From: Escherichia phage slur09
Reading direction: 5' to 3' (one strand)
DNA: 64,000 nucleotides
Sequence record: NC_028840.1
Shown in pieces: positions 49,680 through 58,219 of this stretch (position 1 is the first letter of the stretch; each line of letters begins with the position of its first letter). A program made the position numbers and the translations under genes. A model generated the notes under the pieces. It did not search any database. It was not told the DNA's origin and worked only from the letters and a program-made list of their open reading frames with translations.

Positions 49680-49756
49680 GGGGGTGTAATCGAATTGGCA
49701 TAGGTACTGGACTTAAAATTCAGGTTTTGTGGGTTCGAATCCCACCACCCCTACCA
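49680..49756 (+). tRNA. tRNA with Leu anticodon TAA on a short-variable-arm (type I) scaffold
   Basis: Acceptor GGGGGTG/CACCCCT, A73, D-loop AATTGGCAT, anticodon arm CTGGA-CTTAAAA-TTCAG, 5-nt variable loop, T-arm GTGGG-TTCGAAT-CCCAC. Confidence 0.6.
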
Positions 49757-50739: not shown

Positions 50740-51231
50740 ATGTATATTGATCGGATAATTCAAGAAGCTGCAAATAGGGGTATTATACAGTTGGGTTCAC
50801 CCGCTGATATAAACAAAGATCTAATATTAGAAAGCCTCACATTTGGTACAGCTAACTTTGGTCGCGATAGTAATCGTCGATATAGCTTGAAGTTATCTGC
50901 ACTATCTTTTATCAAGTATAACAAAAGTATTGGAGAAAAATCCAGCTGTGGTTTTATTTACGCAATAACTAACCCAGCTTGGGATAACTATGTAAAAATT
51001 GGTATGTCTTCTGATCCTAAAACAAGATTAGGAAATTACCAAACCTATTCTCCTTTACGTGATTATAAGTTAATACATTGGTCATTTTGGTTTAATGCTA
51101 GAGAAGCGGAGAAAATGCTTCATAATAGCTTTCCTGAACGGCTTAATGAATGGGTAGTGTTAGACAGAGGTGTAGACGAAATACTTTCCGAGTTTAACAA
51201 TCTATCCAATAAGCAATTTAAGTCCTGTTAG
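50740..51231 (+). CDS. T5orf172-domain protein (GIY-YIG-like, putative homing endonuclease family)
   Basis: 163 aa; GFIYAITNPAWDNYVKIGMS...RL.NYQTYSP motif shared with ORF 54257..54730. Confidence 0.6.
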   Translation: MYIDRIIQEAANRGIIQLGSPADINKDLILESLTFGTANFGRDSNRRYSLKLSALSFIKYNKSIGEKSSCGFIYAITNPAWDNYVKIGMSSDPKTRLGNYQTYSPLRDYKLIHWSFWFNAREAEKMLHNSFPERLNEWVVLDRGVDEILSEFNNLSNKQFKSC

Positions 51232-51306: not shown

Positions 51307-51383
51307 ATTCCTAGAGTGTTACTGGACAGCATGTCGGTCTCCAAAACCGTACGGTCTAGGTTCGAGTCCTAGTAGGTTTGCCA
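51307..51383 (+). tRNA. tRNA-Trp-like (anticodon CCA) with two U-U mismatches in the acceptor stem
   Basis: Anticodon arm CGGT-CTCCAAA-ACCG, T-arm CTAGG-TTCGAGT-CCTAG, acceptor ATTCCTA/TAGGTTT pairs 5 of 7. Confidence 0.45.
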
Positions 51384-51389
51384 AAATTT

Positions 51390-51464
51390 GCACCTTTAGC
51401 TGAGATGGATTAGCGCTTGCCTGAAGAGCTTGAGAGGTTCGTTCGATTCGAACAGGGTGCACCA
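51390..51464 (+). tRNA. tRNA-Phe (anticodon GAA)
   Basis: Acceptor GCACCTT/AGGGTGC, anticodon loop CTGAAGA, T-arm GTTCG-TTCGATT-CGAAC; anticodon stem has two U-U mismatches. Confidence 0.6.
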
Positions 51465-52431: not shown

Positions 52432-52514
52432 GGGTCGTTAGCCAAGCGGTTTGGCGGTGGACTGTTAATCCATGTCGAAAGACAACGTAGGTTCGAATCC
52501 TACACGGCCCGCCA
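52432..52514 (+). tRNA. tRNA with Asn anticodon GTT on a long-variable-arm (type II) scaffold
   Basis: Acceptor GGGTCGT/ACGGCCC, G73, D-arm GCCA/TGGC, anticodon arm GTGGA-CTGTTAA-TCCAT, 13-nt variable arm with GTC-GAAA-GAC hairpin, T-arm GTAGG-TTCGAAT-CCTAC. Confidence 0.6.
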
Positions 52515-54004: not shown

Positions 54005-54082
54005 TGCGGGTTAGATCTCTGGTAGAGATCGCTAGTCTCATAAGCTAGAAAGAGGTAGGTTCGATTCCTGCACCCGCTTCCA
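54005..54082 (+). tRNA. tRNA with CAT anticodon (Met/Ile2/initiator candidate), U1-U72 mismatch
   Basis: Acceptor TGCGGGT/ACCCGCT (first pair U-U), D-arm GATC/GATC, anticodon arm CTAGT-CTCATAA-GCTAG, T-arm GTAGG-TTCGATT-CCTGC. Confidence 0.6.
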
Positions 54083-54267: not shown

Positions 54268-54730
54268 CAAGGTGCTTCAAGCTCTAGATCTTCCAGAGCT
54301 CTTTACTATTACCGACTCCTTAATACATCGGTATATGGAAAAGTATAATGAAATCTCTGGTAAAAAAGGGAAACTAAAATCCTCAGAATTTAAGTTCTGT
54401 TATAGAATGGCAGCATTAAACCTCTTAAAGTATAAGAGGGAGCATAAAATTCCTATAACAGAAGGATTTGTCTATGTAATAGGTAATCCAGCATGGCCTG
54501 GACTATATAAGATAGGCATGACAGTAGATGTGAACGAAAGACTGTCTAGTTATCAAACATATTCGCCTTATCGTGATTACAAGTTATACCATTTCAGATT
54601 CTCCTCAGACAAGAGAAGAACTGAAAAAGCATTACATAACCTTCTGAAAGACTACAAAATATCAGGAGAATGGTTTGAAGTACCTCTGTTAGACGCCTTC
54701 AAACTATTAGTAGAAAATTTGGATTGCTAA
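54257..54730 (+). CDS. T5orf172-domain protein (GIY-YIG-like, putative homing endonuclease family)
   Basis: 157 aa; GFVYVIGNPAWPGLYKIGMT...RLSSYQTYSP motif, paralog of 50740..51231. Confidence 0.6.
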   Translation: MLINKVLQALDLPELFTITDSLIHRYMEKYNEISGKKGKLKSSEFKFCYRMAALNLLKYKREHKIPITEGFVYVIGNPAWPGLYKIGMTVDVNERLSSYQTYSPYRDYKLYHFRFSSDKRRTEKALHNLLKDYKISGEWFEVPLLDAFKLLVENLDC

Positions 54731-54798
54731 CTCAACTGGATAAGAGTACCGGACCTTTAATCCGTCAGTTCTGGGTTCGAATCCCAGGCAATCCACCA
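54721..54798 (+). tRNA. tRNA-Lys (anticodon TTT)
   Basis: Acceptor GGATTGC/GCAATCC, D-arm ACTC/GAGT, anticodon loop CCTTTAA, T-arm CTGGG-TTCGAAT-CCCAG, encoded CCA. Confidence 0.8.
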
Positions 54799-55167: not shown

Positions 55168-55244
55168 GCGTGATTGATGGAATTGGCATACATACCGTCC
55201 TTAGAAGTCGGGTTTTGAGGGTTCGAATCCCTTGTCACGCACCA
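55168..55244 (+). tRNA. tRNA with Leu anticodon TAG on a short-variable-arm (type I) scaffold
   Basis: Acceptor GCGTGAT/GTCACGC, A73, D-loop AATTGGCAT, anticodon arm CCGTC-CTTAGAA-GTCGG (one U-U), T-arm GAGGG-TTCGAAT-CCCTT; paralogous to the tRNA at 49680. Confidence 0.6.
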
Positions 55245-55356: not shown

Positions 55357-55447
55357 GGAAGAGCAAATCGAATTGGCGACGAAAACCGCTTGGAAAGTGG
55401 CTGACTGGTAAAACGGCTTGAGAGTTCAAATCTCTCCTCTTCCGCCA
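55357..55447 (+). tRNA. tRNA-Ser (anticodon GGA), long variable arm
   Basis: Acceptor GGAAGAG/CTCTTCC, G73, anticodon arm CCGC-TTGGAAA-GTGG, long variable arm, T-arm GAGAG-TTCAAAT-CTCTC, encoded CCA. Confidence 0.65.
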
Positions 55448-55459
55448 AACAATTTATAT

Positions 55460-55554
55460 GGTAGGTCAATCCAATGGCTGGCGCTGGACTCCGACTTGAA
55501 ATCGGTTGATCGTAGTGATACGGTGTAAGGGTTCGATCCCCTTACCTACCTCCA
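55460..55554 (+). tRNA. tRNA-Ser (anticodon TGA), long variable arm
   Basis: Acceptor GGTAGGT/ACCTACC, anticodon arm CCGA-CTTGAAA-TCGG, long variable arm, T-arm AAGGG-TTCGATC-CCCTT, encoded CCA. Confidence 0.65.
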
Positions 55555-55559
55555 AGTCT

Positions 55560-55691
55560 TGAAGTATGCCGGAATCGGTAGACGGGGCTGCCTAAAAGGT
55601 TTACAGGGAACATCCACTCCTTGCAACATACCTCATAAAGCGGCTGAGATAAATGGTCTATCTCGTGAAGGTTCAAGTCCTTCTGCTTCTT
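55560..55691 (+). ncRNA. tRNA-like RNA (about 132 nt): type II-like scaffold with a roughly 48-nt insertion in the anticodon arm
   Basis: Acceptor TGAAGTA/TGCTTCT (6 of 7 pairs, U1-U72), D-arm CCG-GAATCGGTAGA-CGG, anticodon-type stem GCTGC/GCGGC enclosing 55592-55639, variable hairpin GAGATA/TATCTC, T-arm GAAGG-TTCAAGT-CCTTC; no CCA. Confidence 0.35.
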
Positions 55692-56458: not shown

Positions 56459-56534
56459 TGGGATGTAGATCAATTGGCAGATCGTCGGCCCCTGACTCCG
56501 AAGGTTCCTGGTTCGATCCCAGGCACTCCAGCCA
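56459..56534 (+). tRNA. tRNA-Gln (anticodon CTG), non-canonical anticodon arm
   Basis: Acceptor TGGGATG/CACTCCA (one A-C mismatch), D-arm GATC/GATC, anticodon region TCGGC-CCCTGAC-TCCGA (C at position 33), T-arm CCTGG-TTCGATC-CCAGG, encoded CCA. Confidence 0.5.
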
Positions 56535-56540
56535 AATAAT

Positions 56541-56616
56541 TGGAGAGTAGTGTAACGGTTAGCACAACGGCCTTTGACTCCGTTAATGGTAGGTTCGATT
56601 CCTCCTTCTCCAGCCA
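56541..56616 (+). tRNA. tRNA-Gln (anticodon TTG)
   Basis: Acceptor TGGAGAG/TTCTCCA, anticodon arm ACGGC-CTTTGAC-TCCGT, T-loop TTCGATT, encoded CCA. Confidence 0.65.
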
Positions 56617-56624
56617 AATAATAA

Positions 56625-56700
56625 GCGGTTAAGCACACGGGTTGTGTCGCAGGCCTTCCAAGCCTCGCTGAGTAGGGTTCGATTCCCTCTAGCCGCTCCA
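56625..56700 (+). tRNA. tRNA-Gly (anticodon TCC)
   Basis: Acceptor GCGGTTA/TAGCCGC, D-arm CACA/TGTG, anticodon arm AGGC-CTTCCAA-GCCT, T-loop TTCGATT, encoded CCA. Confidence 0.7.
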
Positions 56701-57133: not shown

Positions 57134-57220
57134 GCTGGGTTGGCAGAATGGTTGAATGCACCTGATTTGTAATCAGGAGGAGTAATCCCGTTGCAGGTTC
57201 GAATCCTGTGCCCAGCACCA
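57134..57220 (+). tRNA. tRNA with Thr anticodon TGT on a long-variable-arm (type II, Leu-like) scaffold
   Basis: Acceptor GCTGGGT/GCCCAGC (G1-C72, C2-G71), A73, D-arm GCA-GAATGGTTGAA-TGC, anticodon arm CCTGA-TTTGTAA-TCAGG, 15-nt variable arm, T-arm GCAGG-TTCGAAT-CCTGT, encoded CCA. Confidence 0.6.
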
Positions 57221-57970: not shown

Positions 57971-58047
57971 GCTTCGGTAGCTTAGCGATCTAAAGCACTC
58001 GGCCGATAACCGAGAGATCGGGGGTTTAAATCCCTCCCGGAGTACCA
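57971..58047 (+). tRNA. tRNA-Ile (anticodon GAT)
   Basis: Acceptor GCTTCGG/CCGGAGT (two G-U), D-arm GCTT/AAGC, anticodon arm CTCGG-CCGATAA-CCGAG (C at position 33), T-arm GGGGG-TTTAAAT-CCCTC, encoded CCA. Confidence 0.65.
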
Positions 58048-58143: not shown

Positions 58144-58219
58144 AGTTAGTTGGCAGAGTGGTTATGCACCTCCTTCATACGGAGCGACTACAGTGGTTCA
58201 AATCCACTACTAACTACCA
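58144..58219 (+). tRNA. tRNA with CAT anticodon (Met/initiator/Ile2 candidate)
   Basis: Acceptor AGTTAGT/ACTAACT, anticodon arm CTCC-TTCATAC-GGAG, T-arm AGTGG-TTCAAAT-CCACT, encoded CCA. Confidence 0.65.

What the first reader, a model, noticed from the sequence alone, without database searches (positions are those of the whole stretch)
51307..51464. Recurrent U-U mismatches in tRNA stems
U-U mismatches sit at equivalent stem positions in several tRNAs: the acceptor stem of the Trp-like tRNA (51307-51383), the anticodon stem of tRNA-Phe (51390-51464), position 1-72 of the CAT tRNA at 54005 and of the tRNA-like element at 55560, and the anticodon stem of the UAG tRNA. The recurrence suggests either a tolerated phage-specific feature or degeneration of some genes, and the same pattern could affect recognition by host nucleases or synthetases.
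Basis: seen in the sequence. Interest (0 to 1): 0.4.

Follow-up and report, generated by a model that had tools for sequence, protein, structure and literature searches.

The report
Conserved U·U pairs in T5-phage tRNAs
The window is the tRNA gene cluster of a T5-like phage. The U-opposite-U positions in several tRNA stems are real and are kept across related phages, so they are retained features of working, already catalogued tRNAs and not decay; why they are kept is untested.

Summary
ARAGORN, Rfam and covariation all give the same register. U·U sits at Trp 2·71, 3·70 and 27·43, Phe 28·42 and 29·41, the CAU tRNA at 54005 (1·72), Leu(UAG) 30·40, and the tRNA-like RNA1 at 55560 (1·72).

The window is a T5-like phage (Demerecviridae). 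These genes match ones already annotated in phage T5 and Salmonella phage 5: three are identical and Phe differs by one base.

Mismatches are enriched and skewed. The window has 13 in 357 stem pairs, 7 of them U·U and 12 pyrimidine·pyrimidine. A sample of 23 E. coli tRNAs has 5 in 391, mostly A·C.

- **Trp:** 2·71 and 3·70 stay unpaired in all 10 distinct homologues, while the four neighbouring acceptor pairs and four T-stem pairs change by compensatory substitutions.
- **Phe:** the tandem U·U persists on eight acceptor/T-stem backgrounds.
- **Trp function:** the identical gene is annotated as convertible to an amber suppressor.

The 1·72 U·U of the CAU tRNA is the bacterial initiator hallmark. 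It occurs with G2-C71, C3-G70 and A11-U24.

The reason the internal U·U pairs are kept is unknown. Escape from defence nucleases that nick tRNA stems is plausible but is only an inference.

Overall these are known objects with a modestly interesting pattern that I did not find described.

The parts
51307..51383 (+). tRNA-Trp(CCA), 77 nt with encoded CCA. It has U2·U71 (51308·51378), U3·U70 (51309·51377), U27·U43 (51334·51350) and G8 in place of U8.
   Evidence: ARAGORN. Rfam 36.3 bits. 100% identical to the phage 5 tRNA-Trp that is annotated as convertible to an amber suppressor. Covariation supports the fold.
51390..51464 (+). tRNA-Phe(GAA), 75 nt, with tandem U28·U42 (51417·51431) and U29·U41 (51418·51430) in the anticodon stem.
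   Evidence: ARAGORN. Rfam 45.8 bits. The tandem mismatch is retained in 9 of 11 distinct T5-family homologues and sits on 8 acceptor/T-stem backgrounds in viral contigs.
54005..54082 (+). Initiator-type tRNA(CAU), 78 nt. It has U1·U72 (54005·54078), G2-C71, C3-G70, A11-U24 and U73. It lacks the three G-C pairs at the base of the anticodon stem.
   Evidence: ARAGORN. 100% identical to the genes annotated 'initiator tRNA fMet' in T5 and phage 5. The 1·72 opposition is kept as UU, CU or UC in relatives. Compared with E. coli metZ.
55168..55244 (+). tRNA-Leu(UAG), 77 nt, class-I shape with a 5-nt variable loop, and U30·U40 (55198·55208).
   Evidence: ARAGORN. Rfam 47.5 bits. Identical in phage 5. 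The U·U is kept in L011, which has compensatory acceptor-stem changes. In the wider scaffold family U·U is a minority state, 5 of 112 distinct sequences.
55560..55690 (+). T5 'RNA1', a tRNA-like stable RNA. Its acceptor-like stem pairs 55560-55566 with 55684-55690, with U55560 opposite U55690. It has a T arm, no CCA and a large internal insertion.
   Evidence: 98.7% identical to the stretch of phage 5 (L016 10407-10563) that holds annotated rna1, and 86.6% to the corresponding T5 stretch. Compensatory changes at two acceptor-like pairs between the window and T5. Fold.
54721..54798 (+). tRNA-Lys(UUU) with C27·U43 (54749·54765) and C33.
56459..56616 (+). tRNA-Gln(CUG) and tRNA-Gln(UUG). Both have C31·U39. 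Gln(CUG) also has A5·C68, and Gln(UUG) also has U50·C64.
58144..58219 (+). Elongator-type tRNA-Met(CAU) with C27·C43; this position is C·U in some relatives.

Best explanation
These are working tRNA genes, plus one tRNA-like RNA, of the T5-family tRNA cluster. The U·U and other pyrimidine·pyrimidine oppositions are inherited, retained features. They are not folding errors and not decay. They fall into three classes.

(1) The U1·U72 of the CAU tRNA is the unpaired 1·72 end that marks bacterial initiator tRNA. Here it occurs with G2-C71, C3-G70 and A11-U24. From established knowledge of E. coli tRNAfMet, that set directs formylation and keeps the tRNA away from EF-Tu and peptidyl-tRNA hydrolase.

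(2) Internal U·U pairs lie inside helices whose other pairs evolve by compensatory change: tandem at Trp 2·71/3·70, tandem at Phe 28·42/29·41, and single at Leu(UAG) 30·40. The positions are constrained to stay U, or at least pyrimidine, and unpaired. From general RNA knowledge, U·U forms a two-hydrogen-bond wobble-like pair that fits an A-form helix. The cloverleaf therefore survives but is weaker, by about 4.4-4.7 kcal/mol per tandem in the nearest-neighbour model, and it presents a different groove and backbone.

(3) Y·Y at the ends of the anticodon stem (27·43 and 31·39) in Trp, Lys, Met and both Gln. These are positions that tolerate non-pairs in tRNAs generally.

Most likely selective reason for class 2 (inferred, about 0.3): changed recognition by proteins that read tRNA stems, above all escape from defence nucleases that nick double-stranded stems. 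The phage copy would then replace a host tRNA that is being destroyed.

Shown: presence, register, enrichment and conservation; that the Trp gene works rests on a GenBank annotation note. Inferred: the physical behaviour of the U·U pairs and the selective driver.
For: Identity of the region: T5-like phage, 97.6% identical to Escherichia phage vB_EcoS_ESCO30 over 2 kb, with 506 phage records matching. Curated annotations exist in AJ604531 and NC_005859.

Register: ARAGORN and Rfam agree, and covariation controls support it.

Trp: 10 distinct homologues were recovered from five virus groups and from metagenomes. 2·71 is always U·U and 3·70 is U·U or C·U. By contrast 4·69 takes C-G, G-C and U-A; 5·68 takes C-G and A-U; 6·67 takes U-A, C-G and U·G; 7·66 takes A-U and C-G; and four T-stem pairs covary. 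A single U-to-A change would restore a pair, yet none was found.

Function: the identical gene is annotated 'replacement of the anticodon with CUA converts this tRNA into amber suppressor'.

Phe: the tandem mismatch is unpaired in 9 of 11 T5-family sequences. In Proteus phages it is U·U plus A·C, so the non-pairing is kept with different bases. UU/UU sits on 8 acceptor/T backgrounds with 4 different acceptor stems.

Initiator: 1·72 is UU, CU or UC in four genera. The acceptor positions 2-6 and A11-U24 match E. coli metZ. T5 is reported to encode a formylmethionine tRNA (title of Chen et al. 1975, as cited in PMC4810235).

Spectrum: 12 of 13 mismatches are Y·Y, which arise only by transversion. 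The E. coli sample has 4 A·C/C·A out of 5. The family-wide set of 278 distinct tRNAs has U·U as 38% of 201 mismatches.

Plausibility of the driver: retron Eco2 nicks double-stranded acceptor stems in C-rich 3' strands, and E. coli tRNA-Trp is among its in vitro substrates (PMC12916289). The phage Trp 3' acceptor strand has no C against 5 in E. coli, the largest gap of any isoacceptor compared. AriB nicks the anticodon stem between positions 40 and 41, and T5 tRNAs that resist it carry substitutions there (PMC12409363 and PMC11464382). The Phe and Leu U·U pairs lie at positions 40-42.
Against: No experiment links any of these mismatches to nuclease resistance. The known T5 escapes from AriB use base-pair substitutions, not mismatches. 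No defence nuclease specific for tRNA-Phe or tRNA-Leu(UAG) turned up in my literature searches.

Eco2 was reported to cut T5 tRNA-Asp, His and Gln in vivo, and nothing was said about phage Trp.

Fully paired Phe variants exist in sister phages such as atrejo and SB9, and on 12 other backgrounds, so the mismatch is not required for this tRNA family. Leu(UAG) 30·40 is G-C in 100 of 112 distinct scaffold members.

The homologues are related, so conservation counts are not independent events, and the Trp sample is only 10 distinct sequences.

The Trp cloverleaf is predicted to be less stable than an alternative fold (-9.2 against -16.5 kcal/mol). T5 itself carries a different 71-nt Trp gene annotated as not convertible to a suppressor.

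The initiator-type tRNA lacks the three G-C anticodon-stem pairs and has U73 instead of A73.
Confidence: 0.6

Rival explanations
1. Near-neutral tolerance. An AT-rich phage genome under weak constraint accumulates transversions. Only the least harmful mismatches, U·U and other pyrimidine·pyrimidine, survive. They persist by inertia without giving any benefit.
For: Window G+C is 39.4%. The spectrum fits a tolerance filter, with Y·Y common and purine·purine rare. Paired and mismatched Phe variants both exist in nature. The Leu U·U is a minority state. Phage tRNAs are thermodynamically weak overall.
Against: At Trp 2·71/3·70, three of the four bases are invariant, and the one change (U to C) keeps the non-pair. 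The adjacent four acceptor pairs all changed on both sides. A one-step repair is available but was never seen. In Proteus phages the Phe non-pair is kept with different bases, U·U plus A·C.
Confidence: 0.25
2. Tuning of aminoacylation identity or translation-factor binding. The mismatches would act as determinants or anti-determinants for synthetases, for example by removing the G2-C71 and G3-C70 that GlnRS reads on a Trp-like acceptor stem. Or they would tune affinity for EF-Tu, RNase P or modification enzymes.
For: A1-U72, G73 and the whole anticodon arm apart from 27·43 match E. coli tRNA-Trp, while pairs 2-7 are remodelled. From established knowledge, E. coli tRNA-Trp with a CUA anticodon is mischarged by GlnRS. 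A natural CUA-anticodon copy of this scaffold exists in L012.
Against: No kinetic data exist. The idea does not explain the anticodon-stem mismatches of Phe and Leu, since LeuRS does not read the anticodon stem. It is a separate ad hoc story for each tRNA.
Confidence: 0.15
3. Degenerating pseudogenes. Some of these tRNA genes are decaying and no longer function.
For: tRNAscan-based annotations label several orthologues 'Pseudo' or omit them, as in phiR2-01 and many records with no feature over Trp and Phe. Bit scores are low (Trp 36.3). T5 Phe is annotated as not convertible to an amber suppressor.
Against: The genes are conserved with compensatory evolution. All encode CCA. The identical Trp is annotated as convertible to a suppressor. 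Failure of a Phe-to-CUA construct is expected anyway, because the anticodon is a PheRS identity element (established knowledge). Random decay should produce A·C and purine·purine mismatches, which are nearly absent.
Confidence: 0.04
4. Folding artefact. The U·U oppositions come from a hand fold that is off by one register.
For: Minimum-free-energy folding of the single sequences does not return the cloverleaf for Trp and Leu(UAG), and gives a shifted anticodon hairpin for Phe.
Against: Two independent tRNA finders give the same register. Sliding the 3' partners by 1-3 columns drops pairing to 30-49% and removes the covariation. The alternative Phe hairpin is not conserved in the paired variants.
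Confidence: 0.01

Closest known systems
Annotated tRNA gene region of phage T5 (NC_005859) and Salmonella phage 5 (AJ604531), curated by the T5 tRNA group
   Same: Same gene order and same molecules. Trp, the CAU 'fMet' tRNA and Leu(UAG) are 100% identical to the phage 5 genes, and Phe differs by one T-loop base. RNA1 is 98.7% identical to the phage 5 copy and 86.6% to the T5 copy.
   Different: The window has a T5orf172-type ORF inserted between tRNA-Tyr and tRNA-Glu, and a diverged Ser(UGA)-like gene. T5 itself has a different 71-nt Trp gene and a class-II Leu(UAG) in the same slots. The annotations do not mention the mismatches.
E. coli initiator tRNAfMet (metZ/W/V)
   Same: Unpaired 1·72, G2-C71, C3-G70, G4-C69, G5-C68, G6-C67, A11-U24 and a CAU anticodon.
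   Different: U·U instead of C·A at 1·72, and U73 instead of A73. Only one (G30-C40) of the three consecutive G-C pairs at 29-31/39-41 is present.
T5 tRNA-Lys, Thr and Asn as decoy-resistant substitutes for host tRNAs cut by the PARIS nuclease AriB
   Same: These are phage-encoded isoacceptors from the same gene cluster whose stems differ from the host tRNA at the site where a Toprim nuclease nicks a double-stranded stem (PMC11464382, PMC12409363).
   Different: Those cases use Watson-Crick pair swaps and were shown by experiment. Here the change is a non-pair, the tRNAs are Trp, Phe and Leu, and no nuclease has been tested.
Mismatch-rich organellar tRNAs
   Same: Stems with U·U and other non-canonical oppositions that still work (general knowledge, not tested here).
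   Different: Organellar mismatches are often scattered, lineage-variable or corrected by editing. Here specific positions are fixed across genera, in otherwise canonical tRNAs with an encoded CCA.

Membership tests
tRNA (Rfam RF00005) | Covariance-model score above the family gathering score | tested here: met
   Trp 36.3 bits, Phe 45.8, CAU tRNA 43.6, Leu(UAG) 47.5, against a gathering score of 29, with full-length model matches.
tRNA (Rfam RF00005) | Cloverleaf supported by compensatory base changes among homologues | tested here: met
   Trp has 9 of 21 pairs and Phe 8 of 21 pairs with changes on both sides. None of 500 shuffles reached the observed score, and slid registers fail.
tRNA (Rfam RF00005) | Expressed, processed, charged and active on the ribosome | not testable with these tools
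   The only evidence is a GenBank note: the identical Trp gene of phage 5 becomes an amber suppressor when given a CUA anticodon. There are no data for Phe or Leu(UAG) of this sequence.
Bacterial initiator tRNA (tRNAfMet) | No Watson-Crick pair at 1·72 | tested here: met
   U1·U72 in the window. Relatives have UU, CU or UC; Sugarland and FBKp34 have U-A.
Bacterial initiator tRNA (tRNAfMet) | G2-C71 and C3-G70 (formylase determinants) and A11-U24 | tested here: met
   Read from the sequence. They match E. coli metZ.
Bacterial initiator tRNA (tRNAfMet) | Three consecutive G-C pairs at 29-31/39-41 of the anticodon stem | tested here: not met
   The stem is C-G, U-A, A-U, G-C, U·G, so only G30-C40 is present.
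Bacterial initiator tRNA (tRNAfMet) | Formylation of the charged tRNA | not testable with these tools
   T5 and phage 5 annotate the identical gene as initiator. Chen et al. 1975 is cited by title only, and the paper is not held.
Nuclease-evading phage tRNA (as T5 tRNA-Lys against AriB) | The host isoacceptor is a substrate of a defence tRNase | not testable with these tools
   Literature only. E. coli tRNA-Trp is among the in vitro substrates of retron Eco2 (PMC12916289). I found nothing for Phe or Leu(UAG).
Nuclease-evading phage tRNA (as T5 tRNA-Lys against AriB) | The phage copy differs from the host tRNA at or next to the cleavage site | tested here: inconclusive
   The Trp 3' acceptor strand is UAGGUUU (no C, two non-pairs) against CGCCCCU in E. 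coli. The Phe and Leu U·U pairs lie at 40-42, next to the AriB 40|41 site. No nuclease is known to act on these particular tRNAs at those sites.
Nuclease-evading phage tRNA (as T5 tRNA-Lys against AriB) | The phage tRNA resists cleavage and rescues infection | not testable with these tools
   This needs cleavage assays and phage genetics.
tRNA pseudogene | Loss of constraint: mismatches vary among relatives and there is no compensatory evolution | tested here: not met
   Searches show the opposite.

The most novel reading that the evidence does not exclude
Fixed non-Watson-Crick pairs in tRNA stems are a second, structural route by which phage tRNAs escape host immunity. The examples are the tandem U·U at Trp 2·71/3·70, the tandem at Phe 28·42/29·41 and U30·U40 in Leu(UAG). 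By breaking the regular duplex at the nick site they would make the phage tRNA a poor substrate for Toprim-type nucleases that cut double-stranded stems (retron Eco2-like in the acceptor stem, AriB-like at 40|41). The synthetase, EF-Tu and the ribosome would still accept the tRNA. If so, conserved stem mismatches in phage tRNAs could be used to predict which host tRNAs, and which sites, are attacked by defence systems not yet described.
Probability: 0.2. Interest if true: 0.65.

Novelty: already known. Interest (0 to 1): 0.35.

Why it matters
Three reasons.

First, annotation pipelines treat these genes as pseudogenes or miss them. Many phage records have no feature over Trp and Phe, and phiR2-01 labels five tRNAs 'Pseudo'. 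Inventories of phage tRNA sets, and codon-usage arguments built on them, are therefore biased. Conservation shows that the genes should be kept.

Second, a working tRNA-Trp has two adjacent U·U oppositions next to the acceptor end, and its predicted cloverleaf is 7 kcal/mol less stable than a competing fold. That makes it a useful natural test case for how much stem pairing TrpRS, RNase P, EF-Tu and the ribosome really need.

Third, if the mismatches are a response to stem-nicking defence nucleases, they would point to the targets of immune systems. That field is moving quickly, and T5 tRNAs are already the main experimental model in it.

Tried and rejected
(1) Register error. Rejected by ARAGORN, Rfam and the slid-partner controls.

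(2) Single-sequence thermodynamic folding as a check. It does not return the cloverleaf for Trp or Leu(UAG), and it gives a shifted anticodon hairpin for Phe that would present CUG. The shifted hairpin is not conserved in the paired relatives, so I dropped it.

(3) A general depletion of C in the 3' acceptor strand of phage tRNAs, as a signature of Eco2 evasion. The mean is 2.9 against 3.6 in E. coli, which is no more than the G+C difference explains. Only Trp is an outlier, at 0 against 5.

(4) Overlapping coding or promoter constraints on the DNA as the reason for conservation. No ORF overlaps Trp or Phe. The T5orf172 ORF ends 10 nt into tRNA-Glu, and the next ORF starts after Phe.

(5) A bacterial origin for the Trp scaffold. 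There is no exact-core match in the genome collection.

(6) Literature on U·U pairs in T5 tRNAs. Four full-text searches and seven papers read gave nothing on stem mismatches. The 1975 PNAS paper on T5 fMet tRNA is not held, and the 1980s T5 tRNA sequence papers are outside the library, so prior description cannot be excluded.

(7) My first coordinates for the My1 Trp gene were wrong and picked up its Phe gene. I corrected this by BLAST.

(8) My first indexing of the Leu(UAG) scan was off by one. I corrected it.
Full report
**What the region is.** ARAGORN finds 21 tRNA genes on the + strand between 45.4 and 58.2 kb, every one followed by an encoded CCA. Rfam finds the same genes and a few more tRNA-like matches. 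A 2-kb stretch around the finding is 97.6% identical to Escherichia phage vB_EcoS_ESCO30 and matches 506 phage records, nearly all T5-like (Demerecviridae) phages of Salmonella, Escherichia, Klebsiella and Proteus. Two curated records cover the same cluster: the 'Bacteriophage 5 tRNA gene region' (AJ604531) and phage T5 (NC_005859). They annotate each tRNA, several 'tRNA-like' or 'stable' RNAs, promoters, and the result of anticodon-to-CUA suppressor tests. The window's Trp, CAU 'fMet' and Leu(UAG) genes are 100% identical to the phage 5 genes, and Phe differs at one T-loop base. The objects themselves are therefore already catalogued.

**Checking the observation.**
- Trp has U2·U71, U3·U70 and U27·U43.
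- Phe has U28·U42 and U29·U41.
- The CAU tRNA at 54005 has U1·U72.
- Leu(UAG) has U30·U40.
- The 'element at 55560' is T5 'RNA1', annotated as a tRNA-like stable RNA of unknown function. Its acceptor-like strands are 55560-55566 and 55684-55690, and they begin with U opposite U.

The mismatches are not at 'equivalent' positions, apart from the two 1·72 cases.

I counted the 7 acceptor, 5 anticodon-stem and 5 T-stem pairs of all 21 tRNAs. Of 357 pairs, 13 are neither Watson-Crick nor G·U. They comprise 7 U·U, 3 C·U, 1 U·C, 1 C·C and 1 A·C. From stem base composition U·U should be about 7% of such oppositions and pyrimidine·pyrimidine about 44%. The observed 7 of 13 and 12 of 13 give binomial p of about 1e-5 and 4e-4.

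The same bias holds across 278 distinct tRNAs from the Demerecviridae loci I collected. There are 201 mismatches in 4726 pairs, of which 76 are U·U and 139 are Y·Y. Those sequences are related, so they are not independent.

As a host control I read 23 distinct E. coli K-12 tRNAs from nine small regions. They have 5 mismatches in 391 pairs: three A·C, one C·A (the initiator 1·72) and one U·U. The phage set therefore has about three times the rate and a different spectrum. Y·Y mismatches can arise from a Watson-Crick pair only by transversion. Random decay under the usual transition bias would give mainly A·C, so the spectrum already argues for a filter.

Two independent detectors give identical coordinates. 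On an alignment of seven distinct Trp homologues, the cloverleaf pairs 86% of cells, against 35-46% when the 3' partners are slid by 1-3 columns. Nine of 21 pairs have changes on both sides. For eleven Phe homologues the figures are 92% against 30-49%, with eight such pairs.

Minimum-free-energy folding of single sequences does not recover the cloverleaf for Trp or Leu(UAG). For Phe it offers a shifted anticodon hairpin. That alternative is not conserved in relatives with paired stems, so the comparative evidence takes precedence.

I collected the cluster from T5, phage 5, Sugarland and KpGranit (Klebsiella), PM135 and Stubb (Proteus), My1 (Pectobacterium), atrejo, S113, GSW6, SB9, phiR2-01, an unrelated Klebsiella myovirus (FBKp34) and 15 IMG/VR contigs. 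I then scanned IMG/VR and metagenomes with patterns that leave the stems free.

*Trp.* All 10 distinct homologues have U2·U71. Position 3·70 is U·U or C·U and never a pair, and 27·43 is U·U or C·U. In the same molecules 4·69 appears as C-G, G-C and U-A. Position 5·68 appears as C-G and A-U, 6·67 as U-A, C-G and U·G, and 7·66 as A-U and C-G. Four T-stem pairs also covary. A single U-to-A change would make a pair, and none was found. Proteus phages carry a different, ordinary Trp gene (G2-C71, G3·U70). T5, S113 and atrejo carry a third type of 71 nt. The scaffold core has no exact match in 185,579 bacterial and archaeal genomes.

*Phe.* The tandem mismatch is present in 9 of 11 T5-family sequences. 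In My1 and the Epseptimavirus copies it persists alongside compensatory T-stem changes. In Proteus phages it is U28·U42 plus A29·C41, so the non-pairing is kept with different bases. In the wider scan UU/UU sits on eight acceptor/T-stem backgrounds with four different acceptor stems. Other members have U·C/U·U, C·U/U·U or A-U/U·U, and twelve backgrounds are fully paired. Both states are therefore viable, and the mismatched state is long-lived.

*Leu(UAG).* The U30·U40 is identical in phage 5 and several IMG/VR contigs. It is also kept in a 146-kb contig (L011) that has two compensatory acceptor-stem changes. Across 112 distinct members of this scaffold, 30·40 is G-C in 100, C-G in 7 and U·U in 5. 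It is a feature of one clade.

*CAU tRNA.* Position 1·72 is U·U in most relatives, C·U in one contig and U·C in another. It is U·U in My1 and the Proteus phages despite changes elsewhere, and U-A in Sugarland and FBKp34.

*RNA1.* U1·U72 is invariant, while two acceptor-like pairs change on both sides between the window and T5.

**What the pieces are.** The 1·72 case has a specific meaning. Compared with E. coli metZ, the phage CAU tRNA shares G2-C71, C3-G70, G4-C69, G5-C68 and G6-C67. It also shares A11-U24, which in E. coli distinguishes the initiator from elongators. The phage's other CAU tRNA at 58144 has C11-G24. From established knowledge, an unpaired 1·72 with G2-C71 and C3-G70 is what methionyl-tRNA formyltransferase reads, and it is what excludes the initiator from EF-Tu and peptidyl-tRNA hydrolase. 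T5 and phage 5 annotate the identical gene as initiator. [quoted passage not shown] Two initiator features are not met: the three G-C pairs of the anticodon stem and A73. I therefore file it as initiator-type and not as a proven initiator.

The Y·Y oppositions at 27·43 and 31·39 (Trp, Lys, Met, both Gln) sit at the two ends of the anticodon stem, where tRNAs in general tolerate non-pairs. I attach no special meaning to them.

The internal mismatches of Trp, Phe and Leu(UAG) are the real curiosity. The Trp gene works by the only evidence available. The identical phage 5 gene is annotated 'replacement of the anticodon with CUA sequence converts this tRNA into amber suppressor', and one IMG/VR genome carries the same scaffold with a natural CUA anticodon. 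T5 Phe is annotated as not convertible. That result is uninformative, because the anticodon is a PheRS identity element (established knowledge).

In the nearest-neighbour model each tandem U·U costs 4.4-4.7 kcal/mol relative to a U-A repaired stem. The Trp cloverleaf scores -9.2 kcal/mol, against -16.5 for a competing fold and -27.8 for E. coli tRNA-Trp.

**How it most likely works.** Shown here: the positions are retained as non-pairs inside helices that otherwise keep pairing. The function of the Trp gene rests on the GenBank annotation note alone. Inferred from general RNA knowledge: U·U forms a two-hydrogen-bond pair that stays stacked in an A-form helix. The tRNA shape needed by RNase P, synthetase, EF-Tu and the ribosome is kept, while local helix geometry, stability and the bases on display all change.

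The selective reason is not shown. The reading I consider most likely, at about 0.3, is altered recognition by stem-reading proteins, in particular defence nucleases.
- T5 tRNAs are the main model for this. T5 tRNA-Lys, Thr and Asn resist the PARIS Toprim nuclease AriB, which nicks the anticodon stem between positions 40 and 41, because they differ around that site (PMC11464382; PMC12409363).
- T5 tRNA-Tyr counters retron Eco7 (PMC11555353; stated in PMC10644984).
- Retron Eco2 nicks double-stranded acceptor stems in C-rich 3' strands, and E. coli tRNA-Trp is among its in vitro substrates (PMC12916289).

The phage Trp keeps A1-U72, G73 and the E. coli anticodon arm but remodels pairs 2-7. Its 3' strand reads UAGGUUU, with no C and two non-pairs, against CGCCCCU in E. 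coli. That is the largest difference of any isoacceptor compared. The Phe and Leu U·U pairs lie at positions 40-42.

This is circumstantial. The known escapes use Watson-Crick swaps, no nuclease for Phe or Leu(UAG) is known to me, and paired Phe variants do well in sister phages.

**Rivals.**
- Near-neutral tolerance under AT pressure (0.25). It fits the spectrum and the coexistence of paired variants. It does not fit the invariance of Trp U2, U70 and U71 beside four covarying pairs.
- Identity or factor tuning (0.15), for example loss of the GlnRS determinants G2-C71 and G3-C70.
- Pseudogene decay (0.04).
- Register error (0.01).

**Comparison with what is known, and novelty.** The genes are known and annotated, and some have been tested genetically. 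I found no statement about conserved U·U pairs in the accessible literature. However, the original T5 tRNA sequence papers of the 1980s are not in the library and may well describe them. I therefore rate the finding 'already known' as an object. The modest additions are the family-wide conservation and covariation evidence and the link to stem-nicking nucleases. A specialist would find the functional Trp with a tandem U·U at 2·71/3·70 mildly surprising. Nothing here opens a long-standing question by itself. Interest is 0.35.

Noticed in passing
window 54721-54798, 56459-56534, 57971-58047: tRNA-Lys(UUU), tRNA-Gln(CUG) and tRNA-Ile(GAU) have C at position 33 in place of the near-universal U33. 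C33 is present in 7 of 11 distinct Ile(GAU) relatives. tRNA-Lys is the PARIS/AriB and PrrC target isoacceptor.
   Followed up: partly
window 49680-49756 and 55168-55244: Both 'Leu' tRNAs (UAA and UAG) are 77 nt with a 5-nt variable loop. That is a class-I shape, unlike the bacterial class-II tRNA-Leu, although they keep a Leu-like 11-nt D loop and A73. T5 has an 85-nt class-II Leu(UAG) in the same slot. The short form is widespread: 99 of 112 distinct viral-contig members of the scaffold have the 5-nt loop.
   Followed up: partly
window 57134-57220 and 52432-52514: tRNA-Thr(UGU) is 87 nt with an extra stem in the variable region, and tRNA-Asn(GUU) has a 12-nt variable loop. Both are isoacceptors reported as AriB targets. 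The T5 Thr gene is 75 nt.
   Followed up: no
L012 2294-2370 (IMGVR_UViG_2974654585_000001); L021 and L028 upstream of tRNA-Arg: One T5-like genome carries the Trp scaffold with anticodon CUA, a natural amber-suppressor form. atrejo and SB9 carry a tRNA with anticodon UCA, which is opal-suppressor-like.
   Followed up: no
window 49097-49171, 44817-44888, 55357-55447, 55460-55550, 56624-56697: tRNA or tRNA-like genes that ARAGORN misses. They are a CAU tRNA matching the slot annotated tRNA-Ile2 (Rfam 40.3 bits, with C27·A43), a 35.5-bit tRNA match upstream of tRNA-Arg, Ser(GGA), a diverged Ser(UGA)-like gene with U73, and a weak match after Gln(UUG), where relatives have Gly(UCC).
   Followed up: partly
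L022, L023, L024, L025, L020, L026 (Phe genes): In many Phe homologues the T loop reads AUCGUUA instead of UUCGAUU. The conserved T54-A58 tertiary pair appears swapped to A54-U58.
   Followed up: no
window 51314: tRNA-Trp has G8 instead of the near-universal U8, invariant in all seven aligned homologues. The D loop begins with U where A14 is expected, so the usual U8-A14 tertiary pair is absent.
   Followed up: no
window 50740-51231 (+): A 163-aa ORF with a T5orf172/MUG113 (GIY-YIG-related) domain is inserted between tRNA-Tyr and tRNA-Glu. It ends 10 nt inside tRNA-Glu. Phage 5 has only a 7-nt spacer at this point.
   Followed up: partly
L017 11178-11248 (T5), L022, L021: In the Trp slot, T5, S113 and atrejo hold a different 71-nt CCA-anticodon gene with a reduced D arm. 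By my hand reading (not computed) it has an acceptor stem with U1 opposite U72. T5 annotates it as not convertible to an amber suppressor.
   Followed up: no
phage records: Many GenBank records of T5-like phages have no feature over Trp and Phe, or label orthologues 'tRNA-Pseudo'. Routine pipelines therefore under-call this tRNA set.
   Followed up: no
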